A DNA stretch of 64,000 bases from Candidatus Nomurabacteria bacterium. Lineage in GTDB: Bacteria > Patescibacteriota > Patescibacteriia > HK-STAS-PATE-3. The stretch's first letter is position 1. Each line of letters opens with the position of its first letter. Positions 696-20,665 of this stretch are shown piece by piece. The position numbers were made by a program, and so were the translations under genes. The notes beneath the pieces were generated by a model. It was given only the letters and a program-made list of their open reading frames with translations, did not search any database and had not been told where the DNA came from. Location: assembly GCA_023898465.1 (NCBI GenBank), contig CP060223.1, positions 544,001 through 608,000 on the forward strand. The letters are read 5' to 3'.

Positions 696-2465
696 TTATG
701 TAAATTTGATAACCTGCCCAGGTTGAAGAGACTTACCTGATTGCGTCTGTGGCTGACTATGTTTCTCTTGTGCCTGAACAGACTTTGACTGCTCAGCTTG
801 CTTCGGAGTATTTTTGGCTGGCTGACTCTTTTCCTGAGGTTGCTTCTTCTTAGGCTTCGCTGTGAATTGCACAGGACCTTTACTCAGCGCCTCGTGTAAG
901 CTAATTTCTTTTGGTGGCTCAGGAGCTACTTCACGCAACTGCTCAGGCTCAGGTGCCGTTTGTGTAAAATTCGGTCGATCGTTTCTTCCCTGCTCTCGCT
1001 CATTGCGTGGACGGGAGCTGTTTTGATTACCTTGAGGATTTGGTTGACGATTTCGGTCATTCCCGCCTGATCGTTGTCGAGATCCGCCGCCTTGATTTTG
1101 ACGCGGTCCACTTCCCCCTCGACGATCATTTCCACCCCTATTACCGCCGCTACGATTTCCGCCACCCTGGGAACCCTGTCCGAGGAAGATTTCATCAACT
1201 CCAGTCCATCGGCGGATTTTATCTTCTACAATCTCTCGCTTCTTAGCATAGCGCTCACGTGACACCTCAATCACTTTTTGCCCATTACCGGTTGGACCGC
1301 TCACTGGCTCCAGAGTTGTAGCGGAAAAAGGCTCAGAAGCTACTCCATCAATCATTAAGCGGAGATAAATATCGTACTTGGTCAGGTTTACTAAATCAGT
1401 CTCAGTGAAGGTGGGATCAAACTCTTTAGCCAAAAACTCTGCATCAGCGGCACCAACACGGAAACACACGATCGATCCGACGTTGCCAAAAACAGCCGCG
1501 CGAACTTGCTCATCTAACTGCTCAATATACTGGTGAGCCATGATAAGATTTAAGCGATACTTACGCGCCTCTGACAAAATGTTGGCAAAGCTCTCAGTGG
1601 CAAAGTTTTGAAATTCGTCAACATAGAGGAAAAAATCTTTACGATCTTTTTCCGCAATGTCTACGCGACTCATGGCCGCCAACTGAATCTTGGTAATCAT
1701 CATACCACCCAGCAAAGCTGCATTATCTTCACCAATACGGCCTTTGGAAAGGTTCAGTAAGACAATCTTTTGCTCGTCCATCAATTGCCGCAAATCAAAA
1801 GTACTCTTCGGCTGGCCAATGATATTACGAATCATTGATGAGGAAAGAAATTGACCAATCTTGTTTTGGATAGGTGAAACAGCTTCGGTACGGAATTGGT
1901 TAGCGTATTGGCCGAATTCCTCATGCCAGAAAGCCTTCACAATAGGATCAGTTAGCTTCTCCACCACTTTTGATCGATAGTCGTTGTCGACGAGAATACG
2001 AGGAATACCCAAAAGTGTTGACCCAGGATACTCAATCAAGGAGAGAATACTATTGCGCAAAATGTATTCCAATCGAGGTCCCCATGAGTCGCTCCACATT
2101 TTTTTAAACACCGAAACAAGACCCGAGGCTACTAAGTGGCGGTGGGCAGGGTTTACACTTTCTAAGACGTTGAAGGCTACCGGATAATCTACATCAGCCG
2201 GATTAATATACACCACATCATTAATTCGATGTGAAGGAATGTAATCTAAAATCTTTTCCACAAAGTCACCGTGCGGATCAATCACAGCTAAGCCATGACC
2301 AGCTCGCACATCCTGGATCATCATATTTTCAAGCACCGTCGTCTTACCCATACCGGTCTTACCGATAAAGTACATGTGACGGCGTCGATCATCTATTCTA
2401 ATACCAAAGCGCCGCTGCTGATTGCGGAAATTCGTTTTAGCAAAAAAATTAATATCTTCACTCAT
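696..2465 (-). CDS. VirD4/TraG/TraD-like type IV coupling-protein ATPase (FtsK/HerA superfamily). It has no N-terminal TM segment and carries a long disordered RGG/KQ-rich C-terminal tail.
   Basis: Walker A is YFIGKTGMGKTT and Walker B/DEFQ is LYVDEFQNF. The block ...RKYRLNLIMAHQYIEQLDE...GNVGSIVCFRVG matches the T4CP C-terminal (TraM-recognition) region. The tail (about 190 aa) is GGNRGG/RQ-rich then KQ-rich. Confidence 0.7.
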   Translation of the reverse strand: MSEDINFFAKTNFRNQQRRFGIRIDDRRRHMYFIGKTGMGKTTVLENMMIQDVRAGHGLAVIDPHGDFVEKILDYIPSHRINDVVYINPADVDYPVAFNVLESVNPAHRHLVASGLVSVFKKMWSDSWGPRLEYILRNSILSLIEYPGSTLLGIPRILVDNDYRSKVVEKLTDPIVKAFWHEEFGQYANQFRTEAVSPIQNKIGQFLSSSMIRNIIGQPKSTFDLRQLMDEQKIVLLNLSKGRIGEDNAALLGGMMITKIQLAAMSRVDIAEKDRKDFFLYVDEFQNFATESFANILSEARKYRLNLIMAHQYIEQLDEQVRAAVFGNVGSIVCFRVGAADAEFLAKEFDPTFTETDLVNLTKYDIYLRLMIDGVASEPFSATTLEPVSGPTGNGQKVIEVSRERYAKKREIVEDKIRRWTGVDEIFLGQGSQGGGNRSGGNRGGNDRRGGSGPRQNQGGGSRQRSGGNDRNRQPNPQGNQNSSRPRNEREQGRNDRPNFTQTAPEPEQLREVAPEPPKEISLHEALSKGPVQFTAKPKKKQPQEKSQPAKNTPKQAEQSKSVQAQEKHSQPQTQSGKSLQPGQVIKFT

Positions 2466-5177: not shown

Positions 5178-6089
5178 TTAACGAAAGCGTCGCGCTCGCC
5201 AATTATGCCACTCAACCAATAACGTGCTGGCAATGAAAATTGAGGAGTAAGTTCCCACGATAATACCCGCAATCAGCGCTATCACAAACATACGAATTGA
5301 CTCTCCTCCCAGTACCGCCAGAGCAACTAATACAAACAATGTCGTCATCGAGGTATTAATAGAGCGCGACATGGTCTCATTAATACTCCGGTTAGCGATT
5401 TCTTCAAAAGGCTCATTATGATAACGCTGGATACCCTCACGAATACGATCAAAAACAACAATGGTATCGTGCACTGAGAATCCTAGCACCGTAAGTAAAG
5501 CTGTTACAAAAAGTGAATCAACCTCTGTGCCAAATATCTGACCAAAGAGCACAAAGAGACCTACGATAATAGAAATATCATGAATCAATGCAACAATCGC
5601 GCCAACGCCAAATACCCAACTGGGCACCGGTCCGCCACGAGAAATCTTACGGAAGGCCCAAGTGATATACGCGATGATACCTATGAGAACTAAAGCAATG
5701 GCTGAATACGCTTTCTTGCGCAACTCTTGACCAATACTCGGTCCAATCGCAGTAAATGAATCTTCACTCACCTGCTCTTCTTGTAAAGCGCTTAAGGCAT
5801 CTAGGACTGATTGGCGCTCGTCATTGCTTAAGGCGCGTGTTTTTAGGATGAGGCTTTTTTCGTTAGAAGGAACTGCTTGATAAGAACCCAGGTCTAGAGG
5901 ATTCAATGCGTCTTGTATCGTCGAAAGTTCTGGACGAAGTTCTGGGAAGCTTATCTCCAATCGAGAACCGCCAGTGAAATCAATACCAGGCTTCAAGCCC
6001 CAAATCAAAGCACCGACAATAGAGGCCACAACAAGTATCGCGGAAATGATAGTAAAATATTTTCGCTTTTGGATAATCTTTAGCGTCAT
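5178..6089 (-). CDS. secF: Protein translocase subunit SecF.
   Basis: GIDFTGG motif and SecD/F TM architecture. The start ATG at 6089 overlaps the secD stop (ATGA). Upstream Met in the ORF is an extension artefact. Confidence 0.9.
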   Translation of the reverse strand: MTLKIIQKRKYFTIISAILVVASIVGALIWGLKPGIDFTGGSRLEISFPELRPELSTIQDALNPLDLGSYQAVPSNEKSLILKTRALSNDERQSVLDALSALQEEQVSEDSFTAIGPSIGQELRKKAYSAIALVLIGIIAYITWAFRKISRGGPVPSWVFGVGAIVALIHDISIIVGLFVLFGQIFGTEVDSLFVTALLTVLGFSVHDTIVVFDRIREGIQRYHNEPFEEIANRSINETMSRSINTSMTTLFVLVALAVLGGESIRMFVIALIAGIIVGTYSSIFIASTLLVEWHNWRARRFR

Positions 6090-7750
6090 ACTTGTTCCTT
6101 CTTCCGTACTCCATACAGCCAGGCCACACTCACCCATCGTTGAGTGAGACGTAAGAATGTGCGCGTAACTACAATGGCTGAAAACATACTTACTAAAATA
6201 CCAATCGCTAAGGTAATCGCGAATCCTTTAATGATACTTGTACCAAACCAGGCCAAGATAAAAGTGGTAATTAAACTTGAAATGTTTGAATCGCGAATAG
6301 ACAACCAAGCGCGTCGGAAACCCTCTTCAATCGCTTGATTAAGTGGTCGACCTTCACGCAACTCTTCTTTCATGCGTTCAAAAATAAGCACGTTTGCGTC
6401 TACTGCCATTCCGATGGAAAGAATAAATCCAGCAATTCCAGCTAGAGTCAAAGTCACTGGCCAGAGAATAAAGATGGCAAAAACTACGGCGGAGTATACC
6501 CCTAAAGCCAAAACTGAGATAAGGCCAGGCAAGCGATAATAGAGAATCATAAAGAGCGCAACTAAGCCGAGCCCAATTATGCCAGCAACAAAACTAGACT
6601 GCACTGAACGCTCACCAAGGGTTGGTCCTACATTCTGTTGAGAAACAAGCGTAATTGGTACTGGCAGTGCACCAGCATTTAAATTACGAGCTAAGTCTCG
6701 CGCTTCTTGCAAGGTAAAATCACCTGAGATAACCGCTTCTCCACTCGTGATAGCCTGCTGAACTGTTGGTAAGCTTAATGGGAAGCCATCTAAATAAATA
6801 GCCACCACCTTGCCAACATTGCGCTCAGTAATTTCTTTAAAAAGCTGTGTACCCTCGCTATTGAAATTCAAACTAATCTCTGGAGTATTGGTAGTTTGAT
6901 CAAACACGACTGAAGCTCGTTCCAAATCCTTACCCGATAGCCCAGTTGCCACAAAATCGGTTGAGGGTTCAGTTGACTGCAGTATAAAAAGAATATGACT
7001 ACCTTGAACTTCTCGCACATCTTGCCCATCTTGATTCGCTGTACGCTCGTCGGTCTTCTTAATAATATGCAGACCGAATTGCGATTCAACCAGCTCCGGA
7101 TACACCTGCCCGACCGCTAAATCACCGAAGAGAACGTCATCGAATTCTTGCACGAAAGTGCCTTGTTGCGCAAAACCGAGATCGCCCCCATTATCTTTAC
7201 TACCCGGATCTTCGGAATAGAGTTGGGCCAATTGAGCAAAATCAGCGTCAGGTTGAAGCGCTTGTGCTAATACGTCTTGTGCTTTTTTTCGCACTTCTTC
7301 GTTTTGCGCCTCTATGGCTGCTGGATCCTCTGGTGTGGTCTCAATCTGTTCACGAAATTCTAAGGTTGGAGTTTGACCAATCTGCGCGATTGCCTGGTTC
7401 ACGTCAGTGACACCTGGTAATTCAATCGAGACTCGCCATTGATCGCCAGCCTTTTGCGTTTGGACAACTGGCTCGGATACACCAAAGGCATTCACTCGAC
7501 GCTCAATAACATCGCGAACACCTTCTACAGCGTCTTGCGCCTCAGCTGGAGCTACTTGCGATAGATCAGCGTCATAGAGCAATGACACGCCGCCTTGCAA
7601 ATCCAAACCCAGCTGAACAGGTAAATCAATAGTCCAGTCTACTGGCCCTACGTGAATCCGGATTGGTTTTTGATAGTCAATGGTACCAGCTAGCAGGGTG
7701 AGCAATAGAATCCCGGCAAAACTGAGCCAAACTTTCTTCCGTACGGTCAT
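6086..7750 (-). CDS. secD: Protein translocase subunit SecD.
   Basis: LGLDLQGGVSLLY motif, large periplasmic domain, C-terminal RND-like 6-TM bundle. 4-bp overlap with secF. Confidence 0.9.
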   Translation of the reverse strand: MTVRKKVWLSFAGILLLTLLAGTIDYQKPIRIHVGPVDWTIDLPVQLGLDLQGGVSLLYDADLSQVAPAEAQDAVEGVRDVIERRVNAFGVSEPVVQTQKAGDQWRVSIELPGVTDVNQAIAQIGQTPTLEFREQIETTPEDPAAIEAQNEEVRKKAQDVLAQALQPDADFAQLAQLYSEDPGSKDNGGDLGFAQQGTFVQEFDDVLFGDLAVGQVYPELVESQFGLHIIKKTDERTANQDGQDVREVQGSHILFILQSTEPSTDFVATGLSGKDLERASVVFDQTTNTPEISLNFNSEGTQLFKEITERNVGKVVAIYLDGFPLSLPTVQQAITSGEAVISGDFTLQEARDLARNLNAGALPVPITLVSQQNVGPTLGERSVQSSFVAGIIGLGLVALFMILYYRLPGLISVLALGVYSAVVFAIFILWPVTLTLAGIAGFILSIGMAVDANVLIFERMKEELREGRPLNQAIEEGFRRAWLSIRDSNISSLITTFILAWFGTSIIKGFAITLAIGILVSMFSAIVVTRTFLRLTQRWVSVAWLYGVRKKEQV

Positions 7751-7870: not shown

Positions 7871-9292
7871 TTAATCCTGCACTACCACTTTGGTTCCTAT
7901 TGGCGCCCACTCATACACCCACTTTGCATTCGATTCTGAGATATTAATGCAGCCATGGCTCATAGGATGACCAAAGTTATTATGCCAATACGCGGTGTGC
8001 AGATAGTAATGTGGAGTGAAATTAAGATTCCACTTCACGTCCTTAATATCGTAGTTGTCCGGATGCTGCGGGCCGTAGGTCCACTCATAGTCCATGACCG
8101 GCACTTTGCGATAAATCGCGAACTCACCTTTTGGTGAAGGATAGCGCGCTACTCCGCTGGAGATGAGGAAGCTATTTTGGAGGACTCCATCGTCATAGGC
8201 ATATAAGCGCTGCTCAGAAAGATCCACCACAATGCGTTTCCCTACCTGATCCACACTTGCAACGACCAAGCGATTTGGCCCAGTCACAATTTCGTCTTCA
8301 CCATCTGCATCAATATCGCCAGCGGCAATGAAGAGGCCGCCACGGAAATCTCCACTATAGGCAAAGAAGTCGCGCAGGTATTCGCCCTGCGCAGTGAAGG
8401 CACGTACGTGTGGTCCACCGTTTCCATTGGCTGCTACGAGTAATTCATCGCGACCATCAAAATCTAAATCCGCTCCAGCAATATTTACCCCACCACGGAA
8501 CGCTAGCGGAAAGGCGATGAACTCACTAATGATAGGGCGATCTGGTGCTACGTCATATACCTTCACCCAAGCATGGCCAAAGCGATGCAGCGCGAAAAGA
8601 ATTTCGTCATCACCATCACCATTCACATCCGCAGTAGCCACACTTAACCCGCCGCGTTCGTATTTTGCAAATGGCCAAAAGTCCAGACCTTGATATTCAC
8701 CATCAAGTGAAAAAAGTCTAGCTTGGTTTCCGCTATCAAAACCCGAAGCAGTAATAATCATACCAGTGCCGCTACCATTGAGATCGCCACAAGCAACAGT
8801 AACTCCGCCACGAAAAGCGCTGTCGTAGGCCATGAAGCTAGAAAGCTCCTCGCCTTCCATGGTGTAGACCTTCACATTTGGTCCGCCGCCGCGACGTGGA
8901 CCGGTCACGATTTCTGCAATACCGTCATTATTCAAATCACAACTCGCCACGTAAATACCTTTTCGGAACGCATCCATATACGCATAGAAGCTGCTGAGCT
9001 TTACTCCCTCGCTCGTGAAGACTTGCACGTTTGGTCCGCCGCCTGGACCCGCTCCCACAATTATTTCATCTTTACCATCTCCGTTTACATCTCCAGTCGC
9101 TACGCTTGCTCCACCTTGAAAGGCTTCAGTGAAACCGTAAAACTGATTTACCTGACTAAAGTGCGTATCAAAAATTCTTATCTCAGGTGAAAGAGAGAGC
9201 TGCACTGCCTGAGCGCCTGAAACAAAAAACACCCCGAAGAGGAGCGTCGTTATGAGTAAGGTATACTTCTGAGCTAGAAAATACTTTTGCAT
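7871..9292 (-). CDS. Secreted FG-GAP repeat protein fused to a C-terminal L,D-transpeptidase (YkuD) domain.
   Basis: Signal peptide from MQKYFLAQKYTLLITTLLFGVFFVSGAQA. Repeated GDVNGDGKDEIIVGAGPGGGPNVQVF-type FG-GAP units. C-terminal HxxxxxxxSHGCINI catalytic motif of L,D-transpeptidases. Confidence 0.8.
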   Translation of the reverse strand: MQKYFLAQKYTLLITTLLFGVFFVSGAQAVQLSLSPEIRIFDTHFSQVNQFYGFTEAFQGGASVATGDVNGDGKDEIIVGAGPGGGPNVQVFTSEGVKLSSFYAYMDAFRKGIYVASCDLNNDGIAEIVTGPRRGGGPNVKVYTMEGEELSSFMAYDSAFRGGVTVACGDLNGSGTGMIITASGFDSGNQARLFSLDGEYQGLDFWPFAKYERGGLSVATADVNGDGDDEILFALHRFGHAWVKVYDVAPDRPIISEFIAFPLAFRGGVNIAGADLDFDGRDELLVAANGNGGPHVRAFTAQGEYLRDFFAYSGDFRGGLFIAAGDIDADGEDEIVTGPNRLVVASVDQVGKRIVVDLSEQRLYAYDDGVLQNSFLISSGVARYPSPKGEFAIYRKVPVMDYEWTYGPQHPDNYDIKDVKWNLNFTPHYYLHTAYWHNNFGHPMSHGCINISESNAKWVYEWAPIGTKVVVQD

Positions 9293-9300
9293 TTGTTTGT

Positions 9301-9422
9301 CTTTCCAAAAGAAAAGGGAGAACGGGTGAGGAATCAATTTGGACTCGCTAGAAAGCTAGTAAACCCGAAGTGATTCCTCACCCGATAAGACTCTTTTTGT
9401 GTCTCTTTTTGTTTTTGGAAAG
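9301..9422. repeat. Nested imperfect inverted repeat (13-bp perfect core GGGTGAGGAATCA/TGATTCCTCACCC plus outer CTTTCCAAAA/TTTTGGAAAG arms) in the divergent intergenic region.
   Basis: Read directly. Core arms at 9324-9336 and 9371-9383. The outer arm at 9301-9310 is mirrored at 9413-9422. Confidence 0.6.
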
Positions 9423-14405: not shown

Positions 14406-14609
14406 ATGGAAAAGGTATTGAATAAAGTGGCTGAGTACCGGCAGAAAAATGAAGAGACCCAAGAGGAACTTGCGGCAGCTGTTGGCGTCACCCGCCAAAC
14501 GGTTATTGCTATTGAGCGAGGTAACTACACCCCTTCGGTTCGGCTTGCGTTAAAAATCGCCCAGCATTACAGTAAAAAGACTGATGATATTTTTTCACTC
14601 GACGAATAA
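14406..14609 (+). CDS. XRE-family (Cro/CI-type) HTH transcriptional regulator.
   Basis: QEELAAAVGVTRQTVIAIERGNYTPSVRLALKIAQ is a canonical XRE HTH. Confidence 0.8.
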   Translation: MEKVLNKVAEYRQKNEETQEELAAAVGVTRQTVIAIERGNYTPSVRLALKIAQHYSKKTDDIFSLDE

Positions 14610-14612
14610 CGT

Positions 14613-14966
14613 ATGAATACGCGCGCCACGCTTATCCTCGCCATAATCATTATTTTACTGAGTCTAGGCCTGCTTAATCCTTTTGATTGGTGGATGCCGA
14701 GTACCCTAGAAATGTCTTTCATCGTTATTTTAGCGCTGATCGGTTTTGCTTATGCTGCTTTTTTCTGGAAAGAGCGTCCGCGAGATGAGCGAGAAGAACA
14801 TGTACAACGAAAAGCCGGACGCAGCGCCTTCTTAGCTGGCATCCTCATCGGTATTACAGGCATCATTGTACAAGGCCTGCAACATGCCTTAGATGCTTGG
14901 CTCATTGCCACCGTAGCCGTTATGTTGCTAGCAAAGATTATTGCAACACTCCAGCAGGAAAAATAA
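14613..14966 (+). CDS. Small membrane protein partner of the XRE regulator (DUF2178-like arrangement).
   Basis: 3-4 predicted TM helices. 3-nt gap after the HTH gene. Confidence 0.5.
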   Translation: MNTRATLILAIIIILLSLGLLNPFDWWMPSTLEMSFIVILALIGFAYAAFFWKERPRDEREEHVQRKAGRSAFLAGILIGITGIIVQGLQHALDAWLIATVAVMLLAKIIATLQQEK

Positions 14967-15050
14967 TCAGCTTATAGCATAATTCGTCCAATAGCACCCA
15001 ACATGCTTGCGTGCCGAACCCCCGCACCATGTTAGATGCGGGGAAAGGCA

Positions 15051-15091
15051 TGTAAAGTCGACTTGACATATAAAAACTTGCCGTTTACACT
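15051..15091 (+). promoter_or_regulatory. Promoter TTGACA-N17-TACACT, overlapped by the 18-bp palindrome TGTAAAGTCGACTTGACA (second copy of the XRE operator).
   Basis: Read directly. The block is 22/25 identical to 14351-14376. Confidence 0.5.
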
Positions 15092-15122
15092 AAGGGCAAT
15101 TACTTTTAAACCCGGAGATCCC

Positions 15123-15758
15123 ATGCTTAACATCAAAGATCAACGAGGCCTCAGCGGTCTAACCATTGCAGCGATAATCACCATTATTGCAGTTGCTTTG
15201 GGGTTAATTATTTATTTTACCAGCACAAATTCAAGCAACAGCAACGAAAACGAATCCATGATGCAAGATGAAAATACAAACGAAGCGATGATGGATGACC
15301 ACATGGATGACAATACAAATGAGGCCATGGTGGACGACGAAGAACACATGATGGAAGACGACACAAACACCAATAGCGACGCCATGATGGAGGATGACGA
15401 GCATGCAATGGAAAAAGATGGCAGCGCAAACACTAACTCGGTTAGCGCCGCTCCTGGTCAATACATTGATTACACGCCAGCTGCTTTTGCTAGCGCCAGC
15501 GATGAAAAGCGTGTGCTTTTTTTTCACGCCACCTGGTGTCCAACCTGCAAAGCTGCGAACGAAGCATTTACATCGCGGCTTGATGAGATCCCTTCAGGAG
15601 TTGTCATTTTAAAAACTGATTACGATTCCCAAACTGCCTTAAAAAATAAGTACGACATCACCTACCAGCACACTTTTGTACAGGTCGATGCCGATGGAAA
15701 TGAATTAGCAAAATGGAATGGTGGAGACGTTGACCTCTTAGCAAGGAAGCTGCAATAA
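15123..15758 (+). CDS. Membrane-anchored thioredoxin-family protein (WCPTC) with a Met/Asp/Glu/His-rich low-complexity linker.
   Basis: TM helix LTIAAIITIIAVALGLIIYF. Linker NEAMMDDHMDDNTNEAMVDDEEHMMEDD... C-terminal thioredoxin fold RVLFFHATWCPTCKAA. Confidence 0.7.
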   Translation: MLNIKDQRGLSGLTIAAIITIIAVALGLIIYFTSTNSSNSNENESMMQDENTNEAMMDDHMDDNTNEAMVDDEEHMMEDDTNTNSDAMMEDDEHAMEKDGSANTNSVSAAPGQYIDYTPAAFASASDEKRVLFFHATWCPTCKAANEAFTSRLDEIPSGVVILKTDYDSQTALKNKYDITYQHTFVQVDADGNELAKWNGGDVDLLARKLQ

Positions 15759-15762
15759 ATCC

Positions 15763-17496
15763 ATGCTATTACTTATTGGATTTGCCTTTCTCGCCGGTGT
15801 CGTCACCGTCCTCTCACCCTGTATTCTGCCAATACTACCGGTTATCCTGACTGGATCAGTGACTGGCAGTAAACGGAGGCCGCTCGGAATTGTTCTCGGC
15901 TTTATTTTAAGCTTCAGCTTTTTTACACTTTTCCTGGCCACCATTGTGCAGTCTACTGGAATCTCAGCCGGGGCTTTACGGACCTTCTCAATTGTCGTGC
16001 TCTTCGGCTTTGGGGTTAGCCTCCTCTTCCCTCGAGTCCAAGTCTGGCTAGAGCAACTTTTCTCGCGCCTTTCTAGCCGAGCACCCCGTCAAGCAAATCG
16101 AACTGGCTTTTGGGGCGGCATCCTCATCGGACTTAGTATTGGCTTGCTATGGACGCCTTGTGTCGGCCCAATCTTGGCATCGGTTATTTCACTCGCGCTC
16201 ACCGGCTCAGTAAGCAGCGGCGCCGCATTTATCACCCTAGCCTATGCTATCGGAACAGCTATTCCAATGCTGGCGATCATGTATGGCGGACGTCATCTCT
16301 TGCAGCGAGTGCCTTGGCTAATGCAAAACACCGGTCGCATCCAAAAGGCTTTTGGTGTGTTCATGATTATTACGGCAATTGGTATTTCAGCCAACCTTGA
16401 TAGGAAATTTCAAACCTTTATTCTCGATACCTTCCCAAACTATGGCATTGGCTTAACTAAGATTGAGGACAACGAGCAAGTCCAGCAAGAATTAGATAAG
16501 CTTAATGCTGAGCCAAATGAAGATATCCAAGGCAAGCCTATGAACGAAGCAACCCAGAGCAAAAAAGAAGACACGCCCGCGCCTGAGCTCATCCCAGGCG
16601 GTGAATGGTTTAATTCCGATCCACTAAGCTTAAAAGAGCTGCGTGGTAAAGTGGTACTGGTTGATTTTTGGACCTACAGTTGCATTAATTGCCAGCGCAC
16701 CCTCCCCTACCTCAGGGACTGGTGGGAGAAATACAAGGATGATGGACTGGTCATCATTGGCGTACACACACCTGAATTTGAATTTGAAAAAGATCCTGAT
16801 AACGTGGCAAAAGCATTGCGGGATTACGAGATTGATTATCCGGTCATGCAGGATAACAACTTCGCTACCTGGTCAGCATATAAAAATCGCTATTGGCCCA
16901 GGAAGTATTTAGTCGATCAAAATGGTAACATCATCTATGATCACATTGGCGAAGGTGGCTATGAAGAAACTGAACGACAAATCCAAGAGGCATTACAAAA
17001 CGCAGGCAAGTCAGTCAATGCAAGTATTAGCACCGAAACAACGGATACTGATTTCACCCAAATTGCTACACCGGAGCTTTATTTTGGCTCAGCTCGAAAT
17101 CAATACCTCGGCAACGGTACTCAATTTCAAACTGGATCCCAAGAGCTCACTCTGCCGGATGATATGAAAAAAAATATGCTCTACCTAAGCGGAACTTGGA
17201 ACTTCCAGGACGAGTACGCAACAAATTCAAATACGGCAAGTATTACACTTCCCTATCAAGCGAAGAATGTCTACATGGTGGCAGCAGCGGATAACGCTGT
17301 GCAGCTGCAACTCAAGTTGGATGGAGAAAACCTTAGCTCAACTCAAACAGGTGCAGATGTCGATAAAAACGGTCAGGTTACCATACAAGCCCACACCCTT
17401 TATCATCTCATTAGCACAGAAAACTACGGCAGCCATACACTGACGATTGAAATCCCAGCCGCTGGACTAGAGGCTTACACTTTTACCTTCGGGTAA
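15763..17496 (+). CDS. CcdA/DsbD-type transmembrane electron-transfer domain fused to a TlpA/ResA-like thioredoxin domain, plus an extra C-terminal domain of about 170 aa.
   Basis: N-terminal LSPCILPILPV (CcdA Cys motif) and 6 TM helices. VVLVDFWTYSCINCQRTLPYL is a TlpA-type CxxC. 4-nt gap from the upstream thioredoxin gene. Confidence 0.8.
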   Translation: MLLLIGFAFLAGVVTVLSPCILPILPVILTGSVTGSKRRPLGIVLGFILSFSFFTLFLATIVQSTGISAGALRTFSIVVLFGFGVSLLFPRVQVWLEQLFSRLSSRAPRQANRTGFWGGILIGLSIGLLWTPCVGPILASVISLALTGSVSSGAAFITLAYAIGTAIPMLAIMYGGRHLLQRVPWLMQNTGRIQKAFGVFMIITAIGISANLDRKFQTFILDTFPNYGIGLTKIEDNEQVQQELDKLNAEPNEDIQGKPMNEATQSKKEDTPAPELIPGGEWFNSDPLSLKELRGKVVLVDFWTYSCINCQRTLPYLRDWWEKYKDDGLVIIGVHTPEFEFEKDPDNVAKALRDYEIDYPVMQDNNFATWSAYKNRYWPRKYLVDQNGNIIYDHIGEGGYEETERQIQEALQNAGKSVNASISTETTDTDFTQIATPELYFGSARNQYLGNGTQFQTGSQELTLPDDMKKNMLYLSGTWNFQDEYATNSNTASITLPYQAKNVYMVAAADNAVQLQLKLDGENLSSTQTGADVDKNGQVTIQAHTLYHLISTENYGSHTLTIEIPAAGLEAYTFTFG

Positions 17497-17501
17497 AGTA
17501 G

Positions 17502-17948
17502 CTATACGGTTGTTTGCATTTTGCGCATTTCGTTACGGCGCAGAAGCAGGCTCACTACAAAAATTCCGAGGTAGAAAAAGAATCCATACACACAAGCTGG
17601 GAGGGATTCTGGCTTCTCCGCAGCCAACCACAATTCGTATACCGAGAGACTCAGTGCAAAAAGCGTGCCCACCAAACCTAACCAAACTAAAGCATTGGCG
17701 ATACCTTTTGAACTTCCCTTCACCCAATAGATTGCGGATAAAATTCCAATAGCCACATACATGGCAAATCCATATACGCAGTTTGGTAAGCCAACAATAT
17801 ATACAGGGTTCACTCCGCAGCTAATAATGGTTTGACCACATCCGTTCGCAAACAAATTTACATAGCTTAAATAGCCTGACAAGAGACCGCCCAACACCAC
17901 GAAAAGCAAAATCAAAGTTAAGGCCAACGAAGATTTCATATGTTTCAA
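17502..17948 (-). CDS. 4-TM membrane protein with four conserved Cys (C-x7-C loop pair and two LP[NA]CVYGF repeats). Possible thiol-disulfide oxidoreductase.
   Basis: NGCGQTIISCG. GLPNCVYGFAMY and SLPACVYGFFFY form an internal repeat. No CxxC, so not a canonical DsbB or VKOR. Confidence 0.5.
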   Translation of the reverse strand: MKHMKSSLALTLILLFVVLGGLLSGYLSYVNLFANGCGQTIISCGVNPVYIVGLPNCVYGFAMYVAIGILSAIYWVKGSSKGIANALVWLGLVGTLFALSLSVYELWLAAEKPESLPACVYGFFFYLGIFVVSLLLRRNEMRKMQTTV

Positions 17949-20071: not shown

Positions 20072-20494
20072 TCAACGAGGATTGACCGGCTGCTTGGGCG
20101 AAGACTTGGGCTTCGAAGAAGGCTTTTTGTCCACTCCATTGGACCGAGGCCTTCTCGACTTTCCGGTCCTTGTGGACGGCAGTCTGAAAGCTTCTTTCAC
20201 TCGCCCCGCCGCCAATTCCAGCTTGCTGGGCTTGGCAGACGAGCTATTCACCTCGGGTGCTTGCTTGGCGTCAGCGAAGTTCTGTGCGACCTCGCCATGA
20301 GCTTGAGCTGAAACACCGGATGCCCGACGATTCTCATCGCGCACCCGATCGTAGATCTCTTCCCGGTGGACAGCGACATTCTTCGGCGCATCAACGCCAA
20401 TCTTGACCTGTCCACCCTTCACATCCAGGATGATGATCTTGACCCGATCACCTACCCGGATATTCTCCCCCAACTTCCTTGTCAAAATGAGCAT
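20072..20494 (-). CDS. csrA: CsrA-like carbon storage regulator with a basic K/S/P-rich C-terminal extension of about 75 aa. GC-rich patch.
   Basis: [48 protein letters not shown] is near-canonical CsrA. The ORF's 25 upstream residues are an extension artefact. The tail is PKQPVNPR-rich. Confidence 0.7.
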
Positions 20495-20665
20495 GACTCT
20501 TGTACTCCATTGCTTGGCTGTGTGGCCATCCTTGGTTTCTCGGGCGCCAAAAACGCCCTCCTGTTGCAAACGGAGATACTACGCGAGTCTCTCTATTTTG
20601 TCAACCATGCACCGAACCTGGTACGGAGTGAGTCCCACACCAAACTTGGTGTGGGGTCAACCACT

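What the first reader, a model, noticed from the sequence alone, without database searches (positions are those of the whole stretch)
15123..15758. Met/Asp/Glu/His-rich repeat linker in a membrane-anchored thioredoxin
Between the TM anchor and the WCPTC thioredoxin fold lies about 100 aa of degenerate repeats (NEAMMDDHMDDNTNEAMVDDEEHMMEDDTNTNSDAMMEDDEHAMEKD). Clustered Met with His/Asp resembles periplasmic Cu(I)/Cu(II)-binding Met-rich motifs (CopA/CusF/PcoC-like). This may be a thioredoxin coupled to metal capture, or a calcium-binding acidic spacer.
Basis: partly seen in the sequence, partly recalled or inferred. Interest (0 to 1): 0.5.

Follow-up and report, generated by a model that had tools for sequence, protein, structure and literature searches.

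The report
Methionine-rich tether on a surface thioredoxin
A membrane-anchored, outward-facing thioredoxin of an uncultured Patescibacteria-type bacterium carries a disordered, acidic tether packed with methionine pairs, which looks more like a built-in sacrificial antioxidant sink than the copper-binding motif first suggested.

Summary
Window 15123-15758 (+) encodes a 211-aa protein with an N-terminal membrane anchor, a 78-aa disordered linker and a WCPTC thioredoxin domain. The linker has 11 Met, 24 Asp/Glu and net charge -23. Met enrichment is significant (P=1e-7); His is neither enriched nor conserved.

The copper-motif reading fails its own test. The query has no MxM or MxxM. In 114 Met-rich linkers of the family these spacings are about 10-fold depleted, MM doublets recur about every 7 residues, and His is 0.5%. 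No copper gene recurs in 81 related loci.

The gene lies directly upstream of a CcdA/DipZ electron conduit in 73 of 81 loci. In five loci CcdA is fused to MsrA-MsrB, and other loci carry msrA or msrB beside the module. The linker's make-up (Met plus charged residues, unfolded, unconserved) matches MrpX, the proven periplasmic methionine sink.

About a third to a half of relatives have the Met-rich state. It is evolutionarily labile and specific to this thioredoxin family.

Best reading (about 0.4): a tethered sacrificial methionine sink on an acidic spacer. Metal capture is not excluded, because the domain has His in place of the thioredoxin cis-proline.

The parts
15063..15091 (+). Promoter-like site (TTGACA-17-TACACT), 32 nt before the start codon
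   Evidence: One search gives a 10/12 match, but the number of sites in the region is not above chance. The leader from about 15050 to the ATG is 100% identical in the 87%-identical orthologue locus L086, while the sequence upstream of that diverges.
15123..15758 (+). Gene for the 211-aa signal-anchored extracytoplasmic thioredoxin
15150..15218 (+). N-terminal transmembrane anchor (aa 10-32)
   Evidence: Hydropathy above 1.6 over aa 7-37. AlphaFold2 predicts a helix at aa 12-36.
15219..15452 (+). Disordered polyanionic linker (aa 33-110)
   Evidence: Composition is. pLDDT is 52-62 with no secondary structure.
15255..15413 (+). Met-rich core of the linker (aa 45-97): four MM doublets plus three single Met in a D/E/N/T matrix
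   Evidence: 11 Met in 53 aa, P=2e-9. Degenerate 30-nt units are reported.
15288..15326 (+). One 39-nt (13-codon) repeat unit, NTNEAMMDDHMDD, absent from the closest orthologue. Its placement within the repeat is ambiguous.
   Evidence: DNA alignment with L086. It lies within the direct repeats 15267-15299 and 15306-15338, which are spaced 39 nt apart.
15453..15755 (+). Thioredoxin-fold domain (aa 111-211), Met-free
   Evidence: Pfam PF00085 at 1e-8. pLDDT 97-98. Foldseek places it among classical thioredoxins with TM about 0.72.
15537..15548 (+). Active-site Cys139-Pro-Thr-Cys142
   Evidence: Read from the sequence. Invariant in 312 family domains.
15669..15671 (+). His183 at the position of the thioredoxin cis-proline (YQHTFVQVD)
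   Evidence: HMMER alignment to PDB thioredoxins pairs smPTFVfv with yqHTFVqv. In the family this position is H 83%, T 8%, S 7% and never P.
15525..15527 (+). His135 in FFHAxWC. By motif alignment it corresponds to Trp28 of E. coli Trx, and Phe133 corresponds to the buried Asp26.
   Evidence: His 81%, Phe 87%. The mapping onto E. coli numbering comes from my own knowledge of that sequence.
15763..17496 (+). DipZ-type partner: CcdA membrane domain + redoxin domain + Thioredoxin_10 C-terminal domain. It starts 4 nt after the Trx stop codon.
   Evidence: Pfam. PDB 2hyx and 5cyy (M. tuberculosis DipZ) at E=1e-64, and CcdA 5vkv at 5e-13.
14406..14609 (+). XRE-type HTH regulator that travels with the module
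   Evidence: Pfam HTH_3 at 1e-12. Adjacent to the module in 50 of 81 loci.
14613..14966 (+). Small 4-TM protein paired with the HTH. Its first outer loop carries a Met cluster in relatives.
   Evidence: invariant DERE..R; loop consensus NPFHxWMPDMMxM.
17502..17948 (-). Convergent small membrane protein with weak VKOR/DsbB similarity. Its membership of the module is uncertain.
   Evidence: Pfam VKOR at 1.7e-4 and DsbB at 6.5e-4, both below the curated cut-offs. A homologue lies near the module only in L002.

Best explanation
The gene encodes a signal-anchored thioredoxin that faces outward from the cell membrane. It belongs to a large, uncharacterised subfamily found in Patescibacteria and Deinococcus. 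Members of this subfamily are the dedicated partners of a CcdA/DipZ conduit, which carries reducing equivalents across the membrane.

The linker has two layers. The base layer is a natively unfolded, strongly acidic tether. It lets the catalytic domain reach through or sweep the cell envelope. On top of it, tandem duplication of 7-13-residue units has built a methionine module. The module consists of exposed MM doublets about seven residues apart in a matrix of charged residues.

I infer that this module works like the periplasmic peptide MrpX. Its thioethers are oxidised sacrificially to methionine sulfoxide by HOCl, H2O2 and similar oxidants. This shields the cell surface and the Trx/DipZ thiols. 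Where an exported MsrA/B exists, as in several relatives, the sulfoxides are reduced again with electrons passing from CcdA to this thioredoxin to Msr.

What is shown: the anatomy, the composition and its statistics, the family-wide spacing rule, the turnover of repeat units, and the gene linkage to CcdA/DipZ and, in some relatives, to Msr. What is inferred: the oxidation and recycling chemistry, and the direction of electron flow.
For: Composition and disorder: the linker has 14% Met (21% in the core), the core is 40% charged, and pLDDT is about 53 with no secondary structure. MrpX is described as 20% Met and 44% charged, exported, unconserved in sequence and probably natively unfolded. It is oxidised by hypochlorite and re-reduced by a methionine sulfoxide reductase (PMC4436054). 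The E. coli CFT073 MrpX homologue c3568 has 10 Met in 60 mature residues, spaced 5-10 apart, with no MxM or MxxM.

Family grammar: MM z=+17, MxM/MxxM/MxxxM z=-12/-11/-7, pair distance peaking at 7, His 0.5%.

Specificity: 43 of 75 Trx proteins have at least 10% Met next to the membrane, against 2 of 146 other single-anchor proteins in the same loci (P=7e-20). The catalytic domains are Met-poor, with a mean of 0.7%, and 56% have none.

Pathway: CcdA lies directly downstream in 73 of 81 loci. CcdA-MsrA-MsrB fusions occupy that position in 5 loci (Pfam PMSR 1e-56 to 1e-58, SelR about 1e-40). Separate msrA or msrB genes lie close to the module on the same strand in L025, L027, L038, L046, L056, L058 and L064. 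The MsrB of L064, L056 and L028 is TM-anchored. Surface CcdA-Etrx-MsrAB pathways are established in streptococci (PMC3914529, PMC7034828).

Repeat turnover: one 39-nt unit differs between the window and an 87%-identical orthologue.
Against: No msr gene lies in this 64-kb window, so recycling is unproven for this organism. Msr linkage is seen in only 11 of 81 loci and is not significantly tied to the Met-rich state (8 of 11 against 38 of 70). Half to two thirds of the family lack the Met-rich state, and it flips between proteins whose domains are 82-85% identical, so it is dispensable for the core function. The MM/heptad spacing could simply be a footprint of unit duplication rather than of selection. 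No oxidation or expression data exist. The atypical active site (His for cis-Pro) leaves a metal-related function open.
Confidence: 0.4

Rival explanations
1. Soft-metal capture. The Met thioethers, as MM pairs from neighbouring units, bind Cu(I) or Ag(I). They either buffer the metal away from the Trx/DipZ thiols or pass it to a Cys2His(His) site formed by Cys139, Cys142, His183 and possibly His135 in a thioredoxin fold that lacks the cis-proline.
For: Met-rich disordered segments bind Cu(I)/Ag(I) in known envelope proteins (reviews PMC3847284, PMC7558416, PMC12509749). The domain has His where all classical thioredoxins have the cis-Pro. That proline is reported to prevent metal binding by the CxxC thiolates, and P75S/T/A mutants of human Trx1 acquire a 2Fe-2S cluster (PMC2757866, PMC2665069, PMC6210436). 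The paired 4-TM protein has a Met cluster and a Q..H..D.W loop on the outside. One related locus carries a DUF305-like Met/His protein.
Against: The canonical Mets motifs are absent from the query and about 10-fold depleted in the family. His is 0.5% and Cys about 0 in the linkers. The query's His residues are not kept in the closest orthologue. No P1B-ATPase was found in the 82 fetched loci (81 distinct), and no copper gene recurs among them. The two conserved His of the domain do not co-vary (odds ratio 1.0). Asp/Glu/Lys neighbours are not typical Cu(I) ligand environments.
Confidence: 0.2
2. Passive acidic spacer. The linker is only an entropic, negatively charged tether, perhaps loosely binding Ca2+/Mg2+, that projects the Trx domain through the wall. 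Methionine is a tolerated, soluble hydrophobic residue that spread by slippage of ATG/GAT-rich repeat units, with no function of its own.
For: Met-poor relatives keep acidic or polar linkers of similar length, with I/V/A where the others have Met (P0241 against P0098). The Met-rich state is labile. The repeat units expand and contract. ATG and GAT are frames of the same trinucleotide repeat, which can be read directly from the sequence.
Against: Met enrichment is about 10-fold and recurs across very divergent lineages with different unit sequences. It is specific to this one protein family among 146 other anchored proteins of the same genomic neighbourhoods (P=7e-20). It also co-occurs with the HTH/4-TM pair (39 of 46 against 14 of 36, P=2e-5, not corrected for phylogeny).
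Confidence: 0.2
3. Methionine 'bristle' docking segment. The heptad-spaced MM pairs form amphipathic helices on contact. Their flexible Met face then binds unfolded exported substrates or a partner such as the DipZ C-terminal domain or Msr. Met oxidation might switch this binding off.
For: The pair distance peaks at 7 and again at 13-14, so in a helix the MM pairs would lie on one face. The flanking residues A, E and K favour helices. An MM pair often sits immediately before the first strand of the domain (positions 2-3).
Against: AlphaFold2 predicts no helix and gives low confidence across the whole linker. The sequence is not conserved. The NTN and G/S/P interruptions in this query break any long helix. 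No partner is identified.
Confidence: 0.1

Closest known systems
MrpX (methionine-rich peptide X) of Azospira suillum and its homologues such as E. coli CFT073 c3568, working with MsrP/YedY
   Same: Both are located outside the cytoplasm. Both have 15-20% Met embedded in about 40% charged residues. Both are unconserved in sequence, predicted unfolded, and have Met spaced at least 5 residues apart with no MxM or MxxM. Relatives of this gene are genetically linked to methionine sulfoxide reductases.
   Different: Here the Met module is not a free peptide. It is fused in cis, as the tether of a membrane-anchored thioredoxin. It is acidic rather than Lys-rich and uses MM doublets. The linked reductases are thiol-dependent MsrA/B fed by CcdA, not the molybdoenzyme MsrP. 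There is no detectable sequence homology, and no msr gene lies in this window.
CcdA-dependent surface thioredoxin pathways of Gram-positive bacteria (S. pneumoniae CcdA-Etrx1/2-MsrAB2, S. gordonii, B. subtilis CcdA-ResA/StoA)
   Same: An anchored extracytoplasmic CxxC protein is encoded next to ccdA. In relatives the pathway ends in an exported MsrAB.
   Different: The domain is a compact classical-type thioredoxin, not the ResA/TlpA/Etrx redoxin type. It lacks the cis-proline. The partner is usually a DipZ-type CcdA fusion that already carries its own redoxin domain. None of the known members is described with a Met-rich tether.
M. tuberculosis DipZ (Rv2874; PDB 2hyx, 5cyy)
   Same: The downstream gene has the same CcdA + redoxin + Thioredoxin_10 architecture, with E=1e-64 to the solved part.
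   Different: This comparison concerns the partner gene, not the linker. I found no described function for DipZ and no Met-rich thioredoxin partner in the literature searched.
Cu(I)/Ag(I)-binding Met-rich segments (CopA/PcoA/CueO Met loops, CusF, PcoC/CopC, Ctr1 Mets motifs, SilE/PcoE, PcoB N-terminal disordered region)
   Same: They also have clustered methionines in an extracytoplasmic, partly disordered segment.
   Different: Those use MxM, MxxM or MxxxM, usually together with His. Here these spacings are avoided, His is absent from most family members, the neighbours are Asp/Glu/Lys, and no copper genes are linked.

Membership tests
Thioredoxin (PF00085, classical Trx) | Thioredoxin fold (beta-alpha-beta-alpha-beta-alpha-beta-beta-alpha) | tested here: met
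   The AlphaFold2 domain has pLDDT 97-98. Foldseek top hits are thioredoxins with target TM of 0.70-0.75. The Pfam score of 35.5 bits exceeds the cut-off of 23.5.
Thioredoxin (PF00085, classical Trx) | W-C-x-x-C active site | tested here: met
   WCPTC at aa 138-142. The two Cys are invariant and Trp is present in 94% of 312 domains. The dipeptide is PT rather than GP.
Thioredoxin (PF00085, classical Trx) | Conserved cis-proline before strand beta-4 (Pro76 in E. coli, Pro75 in human) | tested here: not met
   His183 aligns with the Pro of PDB thioredoxins. In the family the position is H 83%, T 8%, S 7% and never P.
Thioredoxin (PF00085, classical Trx) | Buried Asp26 acid/base residue | tested here: not met
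   Phe133 occupies the position, and 87% of the family have Phe there. The position mapping relies on motif alignment from my own knowledge.
CcdA-dependent extracytoplasmic thiol reductases (ResA/CcmG/TlpA/Etrx type) | Anchored outside the membrane and encoded next to ccdA/dsbD | tested here: met
   A TM anchor with N-in topology. CcdA lies directly downstream in 73 of 81 loci and 4 nt downstream here.
CcdA-dependent extracytoplasmic thiol reductases (ResA/CcmG/TlpA/Etrx type) | Redoxin/AhpC-TSA-type domain with an N-terminal hairpin and central insert | tested here: not met
   AhpC-TSA scores 23.4 and Redoxin 17.1 bits, both below their cut-offs. The domain is about 100 aa, and its structural neighbours are classical Trx rather than ResA or TlpA.
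CcdA-dependent extracytoplasmic thiol reductases (ResA/CcmG/TlpA/Etrx type) | Accepts electrons from CcdA and reduces an exported target | not testable with these tools
   Needs redox biochemistry or genetics.
MrpX-type sacrificial methionine sinks | Exported, about 15-20% Met plus about 40% charged residues, unfolded, sequence not conserved | tested here: met
   compared with PMC4436054 and c3568.
MrpX-type sacrificial methionine sinks | Genetic linkage to a methionine sulfoxide reductase | tested here: inconclusive
   No msr gene in this window. Msr is fused to or adjacent to the module in 11 of 81 related loci.
MrpX-type sacrificial methionine sinks | Met residues oxidised in vivo by oxidants and re-reduced; oxidant-induced expression | not testable with these tools
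   Needs experiments.
Cu(I)-binding Mets-motif proteins (CopA/PcoA, CusF, PcoC, Ctr1, SilE) | MxM, MxxM or MxxxM motifs, usually with His | tested here: not met
   The query has 0 MxM and 0 MxxM. The family has 16, 12 and 39 observed against 152, 127 and 103 expected, and His is 0.5%.
Cu(I)-binding Mets-motif proteins (CopA/PcoA, CusF, PcoC, Ctr1, SilE) | Linkage to copper homeostasis genes | tested here: not met
   No P1B-ATPase motif in the 82 fetched loci (81 distinct) or in the window. No copper family appears among the recurrent neighbours. This was a motif-level screen only.
Cu(I)-binding Mets-motif proteins (CopA/PcoA, CusF, PcoC, Ctr1, SilE) | Measured Cu(I)/Ag(I) binding | not testable with these tools
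   Needs recombinant protein.
Sco/SenC copper chaperones (Trx fold, CxxxC + His) | CxxxC motif and Sco-family homology | tested here: not met
   The motif is CxxC. No Sco family appears in the Pfam or NCBIfam hits.

The most novel reading that the evidence does not exclude
The whole subfamily could be a natural cis-proline-less thioredoxin whose CxxC, together with the invariant His183 and perhaps His135, binds a metal or an Fe-S cluster. The subfamily has at least 2,454 clusters at 50% identity with E<=1e-10. On this reading the MM-doublet arms are a new non-canonical thioether capture device feeding that site. That would make it a previously unrecognised class of extracytoplasmic metal-handling thioredoxins, kept reduced by DipZ.
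Probability: 0.15. Interest if true: 0.8.

Novelty: new variant of a known kind. Interest (0 to 1): 0.5.

Why it matters
If the tether is a methionine sink, it would, as far as I could find, be the first case of an MrpX-like sacrificial antioxidant fused in cis to the electron-supply chain that can recycle it. It would also be a surface defence for Patescibacteria. Independently of that, the analysis defines a very large uncharacterised thioredoxin subfamily. Its members always partner with CcdA/DipZ and lack the cis-proline. Published work describes that proline as more conserved than the CxxC itself across the Trx-fold groups compared there (PMC2757866). This gives DipZ, whose function I could not find described, a candidate dedicated partner. 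It also offers a natural test of the idea that the cis-proline exists to keep metals off the active site. Finally, the MM/heptad spacing rule gives a simple sequence criterion for telling this kind of Met-rich segment apart from copper-binding Mets motifs.

Tried and rejected
- Tandem Repeats Finder found no array in 15100-15800. The repeats are too degenerate and appear only with seed-and-extend.
- A homologue search with the linker alone returned nothing, so I could not ask which other domains carry such linkers database-wide. I used the 81 loci instead.
- The exact window protein is not on record in the contig index. A 100%-identical fragment (P0002/L084) and orthologues gave context.
- A literature search for 'methionine-rich' plus 'Patescibacteria' gave 0 papers.
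- Su et al. 2007 could not be read directly. It is cited through three papers that summarise it.
- My first MsrB regex missed all MsrB domains. It was replaced by phmmer.
- I tested whether His135 and His183 co-vary, as a hint of a joint metal site. They do not (odds ratio 1.0).
- P0128, a 4054-aa protein with 37 matched stretches, is an SRCR-repeat protein and a spurious hit.
- The longer ORF starting at 15036 was rejected as the start. Orthologues begin at the 15123 Met, the SD sequence and a promoter-like site lie inside that extension, and the extension is not conserved as protein.
- The idea that Met-rich linkers are a general habit of exported proteins in these organisms was rejected (2 of 146).
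Full report
**1. What is in the sequence**

The ORF at 15123-15758 (+) encodes 211 aa. The longer reading frame from 15036 is not the gene, for three reasons. A GGAG lies 8 nt before the 15123 ATG. The 87%-identical orthologue P0001 starts at the same Met. A promoter-like TTGACA-17-TACACT sits at 15063-15091, inside the putative extension.

The protein has three parts.
- **Anchor.** There is one hydrophobic helix (aa 10-32 by hydropathy; aa 12-36 in AlphaFold2). K5 and R8 precede it and an acidic stretch follows it, so the rest of the protein faces outward.
- **Linker.** It spans 78 aa (aa 33-110, 15219-15452) with pLDDT 52-62 and no predicted secondary structure.
- **Thioredoxin domain.** It spans aa 111-211 with WCPTC. 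It matches Pfam Thioredoxin at 1e-8 and has pLDDT 97-98. Its nearest solved structures are classical thioredoxins.

The linker holds 11 Met, 24 Asp/Glu, 12 Asn, 3 His and 1 Lys, with net charge -23. Against the window's own proteome (1.8% Met), the Met excess has P=1.5e-7, or 2e-9 for the 53-aa core. The three His are not an excess (P=0.19). The catalytic domain contains no Met. No other ORF in the 64 kb has such a cluster.

The repeats are degenerate. There are five 30-nt units at 63-73% identity and two 33-nt units at 82%, which is below the threshold of Tandem Repeats Finder.

**2. The family**

A search with the whole protein found 781 relatives. Where a source names them, most are Patescibacteria. 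That query contained the linker, so I repeated the search with the Trx domain alone against 1.84 billion cluster representatives. It gave 3,653 hits at E<=1e-3 and 2,454 at E<=1e-10, including many forms with 2 or 3 tandem domains. One listed hit, P0128, is a spurious SRCR-repeat protein.

In that unbiased top 150, a segment with at least 5 Met in 30 aa occurs in 31 of 94 single-domain and 11 of 55 multi-domain proteins. In two-domain lipoproteins the Met-rich segment lies between the two domains. The Met-rich linker is therefore recurrent but not universal.

The trait is also labile. Nearest-neighbour concordance is 0.70 against 0.50 by chance, and pairs with 82-85% identical domains differ in state. 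Met-poor relatives keep an acidic or polar linker of similar length, with I/V/A where the others have Met.

Unit turnover is visible directly. The window and the 87%-identical orthologue locus L086 differ by a clean 39-nt in-frame indel, exactly one NTNEAMMDDHMDD unit. The two remaining His are R and D in the orthologue.

**3.

The query has 0 MxM, 0 MxxM, 1 MxxxM and 4 MM. I pooled 114 Met-rich linker segments of the family (6,976 aa) and compared them with composition-preserving shuffles.

| Met-Met spacing | Observed | Expected | z |
|---|---|---|---|
| MM | 379 | 184 | +17 |
| MxM | 16 | 152 | -12 |
| MxxM | 12 | 127 | -11 |
| MxxxM | 39 | 103 | -7 |

- Met-Met pair distances peak at 7 (z=12.5) and again at 13-14.
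- The consensus unit is [DE][DE][AS]-M-M-[EK][DK][DE].
- His is 0.5% of linker residues and Cys is essentially absent.

The spacings that define Cu(I) 'Mets motifs' are thus avoided rather than enriched.

**4. Specificity**

In 1,188 non-overlapping ORFs from 82 related loci, segments with at least 5 Met in 30 aa occur in three groups:
- 47 thioredoxins;
- 10 copies of the small membrane protein described in section 5;
- 20 others, mostly transmembrane stretches.

Among proteins with a single N-terminal anchor, 43 of 75 thioredoxins have at least 10% Met in the 60 aa after the anchor. Only 2 of 146 other proteins do (Mann-Whitney P=7e-20). Background Met in these loci is 1.8%. The Trx domains of the family average 0.7% Met, 56% have none, and 311 of 313 have exactly two Cys. 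The enrichment is a property of this protein family, not of the organisms.

**5. Genomic context**

The next gene (15763-17496) starts 4 nt downstream. It encodes a CcdA membrane domain, a redoxin domain and a Thioredoxin_10 domain. Its extracytoplasmic part matches M. tuberculosis DipZ at E=1e-64, and its membrane part matches CcdA.

In 81 distinct loci from GTDB genomes, a CcdA gene follows the Trx gene directly in 73. Of these, 45 are DipZ-type fusions, 13 have split CcdA and redoxin genes, 10 have CcdA alone (including Deinococcus), and 5 are CcdA-MsrA-MsrB fusions. Two further loci end at the contig edge.

Separate msrA or msrB genes lie beside or within about 0.6 kb of the module, on the same strand, in L025, L027, L038, L046, L056, L058 and L064. 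The MsrB of L064, L056 and L028 has its own membrane anchor. In all, 11 of 81 loci link the module to methionine sulfoxide reductases. No P1B-type copper ATPase was seen. The only other recurrent neighbours are HrcA-GrpE-DnaK-DnaJ, in 8-9 loci.

An XRE-type HTH gene and a 4-TM protein gene (14406-14609 and 14613-14966 here) accompany the module in 50 of 81 loci. They are more frequent with Met-rich linkers: 39 of 46 against 14 of 36 (Fisher P=2e-5, not corrected for phylogeny). The 4-TM protein has an invariant DERE..R in its inner loop. In many relatives it also has a Met cluster (WMPDMMxM) in its first outer loop.

The window itself contains no msr gene and no recognisable copper gene in the ORFs I examined.

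**6. Comparison with known systems**

[quoted passage not shown] It is unconserved in sequence and thought to be natively unfolded. Hypochlorite oxidises it sacrificially, and a periplasmic methionine sulfoxide reductase regenerates it. The authors note that many such peptides rich in Met and charged residues exist (PMC4436054).

I retrieved the E. coli CFT073 homologue c3568 named in PMC8550376. Its 60 mature residues carry 10 Met (17%) and 40% charged residues. Met-Met gaps are 5-10, with no MxM or MxxM. The linker core here has the same charged fraction (0.40) and the same rule of keeping Met apart with charged spacers. It differs in being acidic, in using MM doublets, and in being fused to a thioredoxin.

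Surface CcdA-thioredoxin-MsrAB pathways are established in streptococci (PMC3914529, PMC7034828). The CcdA-MsrAB fusions found here place this thioredoxin family in the same kind of pathway.

**7. Most likely mechanism**

I commit, at about 0.4, to a two-layer reading. The base layer is an acidic disordered tether. Fully extended, 78 residues span up to about 25 nm (0.34 nm/residue, my estimate), enough to project the domain through the envelope. On it sits a tandemly amplified methionine module that acts as a tethered sacrificial oxidant sink. It shields the surface and the Trx/DipZ thiols, and it can be recycled where an exported MsrA/B is present.

What is shown: the anatomy, the statistics, the spacing rule, the family specificity, the repeat turnover, and the linkage to CcdA/DipZ and partly to Msr. 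What is inferred: the oxidation and recycling chemistry, and the electron path.

The rivals are:
- soft-metal capture (0.2);
- a purely passive spacer, with Met as a by-product of ATG/GAT-type repeat slippage (0.2);
- Met-faced amphipathic docking segments (0.1).

**8. An unexpected feature that keeps the metal idea alive**

[quoted passage not shown] Across 312 family domains that position is H 83%, T 8%, S 7% and never P. FFHAxWC has His (81%) where E. coli Trx has Trp28, and Phe (87%) where it has the buried Asp26 (the numbering comes from my own knowledge).

The cis-proline is described as more conserved than the CxxC across Trx-fold groups, and it may prevent metal binding (PMC2757866). 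Human Trx1 P75S/T/A mutants bind a 2Fe-2S cluster (PMC6210436). DsbA cis-Pro mutants trap mixed disulfides (PMC2665069).

The two His do not co-vary, so a joint Cys2His2 site is not indicated. Still, a metal-binding or otherwise atypical active site cannot be excluded. No curated Pfam or NCBIfam model captures this subfamily above threshold apart from generic Thioredoxin.

**9. Verdict**

The copper-motif interpretation fails its own test, while the 'acidic spacer' alternative describes the baseline. The most economical explanation is an MrpX-like methionine module fused to a CcdA/DipZ-dependent surface thioredoxin. That makes it a new variant of known kinds, of moderate interest. The cis-proline-less subfamily and its constant pairing with DipZ are a separate lead worth experimental follow-up.

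Noticed in passing
window 15669-15671 (His183), 15525-15527 (His135), 15519-15521 (Phe133): The thioredoxin domain lacks the near-universal cis-proline. It has His there, in an invariant YQHTFVQVD. It also has His and Phe where E. coli Trx has Trp28 and the buried Asp26. Across 312 family domains the cis-Pro position is H 83%, T 8%, S 7% and never P.
   Followed up: partly
window 14406-14609 and 14613-14966: An XRE-type HTH gene and a small 4-TM protein gene travel with the Trx-DipZ pair in 50 of 81 loci, either upstream or downstream. They are more frequent when the linker is Met-rich. The 4-TM protein has an invariant DERE..R inner loop, a Q..H..D.W outer loop and, in many relatives, a WMPDMMxM Met cluster in its first outer loop. 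It may be a sensor.
   Followed up: partly
L027:8539-10344, L043:8504-10309, L058:8545-10356, L062:8536-10365, L063:905-2743: Single polypeptides fuse a CcdA membrane domain to MsrA and MsrB domains. They are encoded directly after the Trx gene, in the slot where DipZ normally sits.
   Followed up: partly
window 15288-15326 versus L086: There is a clean 39-nt in-frame indel of one repeat unit between two strains that are about 90% identical in DNA. The leader from about 15050 to the ATG is 100% identical, while the sequence further upstream is unrelated.
   Followed up: yes
window 17502-17948 (-): A small membrane protein converges on the DipZ gene. It has weak, sub-threshold VKOR and DsbB similarity. 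It may be an oxidising counterpart placed next to the reducing pathway. A similar gene lies 5 kb from the module in L002.
   Followed up: no
L035, L036, L042, L059, L065 (Deinococcus): The same thioredoxin subfamily, followed by a CcdA-only gene, occurs in cultured Deinococcus species. There it has a signal peptide and a short, Met-poor linker. This offers a tractable host for experiments.
   Followed up: no
P0121-P0153 and others; P0145, P0158, P0097, P0070, P0194; L066:7512-8306: Many relatives have 2 or 3 tandem copies of the domain. Others have extra modules in the linker: DUF6799, RskA_C anti-sigma, CHRD, SLH + fasciclin, or a sequence resembling a peptidoglycan-binding domain (by eye, not tested). 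These modules are often flanked by Met-rich stretches.
   Followed up: partly
L001:1543-7840 and 7-8 other loci: The heat-shock operon HrcA-GrpE-DnaK-DnaJ lies directly upstream, divergently oriented, of the Trx-DipZ module in 8-9 loci.
   Followed up: no
L048:6802-7377, L060:9733-10296, L039:14536-15237, L075:5196-5741: A few other anchored proteins of unknown function near the module also carry short Met- and acid-rich stretches just after their anchor. These are the only exceptions among 146 such proteins.
   Followed up: no
L078:3560-4123 (-): A DUF305-like protein with HH motifs and a GMGMGRGMMHGGMMGG stretch lies beside the module in one locus. This Met-rich segment is of the copper type and has a quite different grammar.
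   Followed up: no
window 696-2465 (-), 6086-7750 (-), 7871-9337 (-), 20072-20569 (-): Other window genes include a TrwB/T4SS coupling-protein-like ATPase, a SecDF protein with an inserted PPIase (rotamase) domain, an FG-GAP + YkuD L,D-transpeptidase, and a 165-aa ORF with a CsrA domain (stretch aa 26-77).
   Followed up: no
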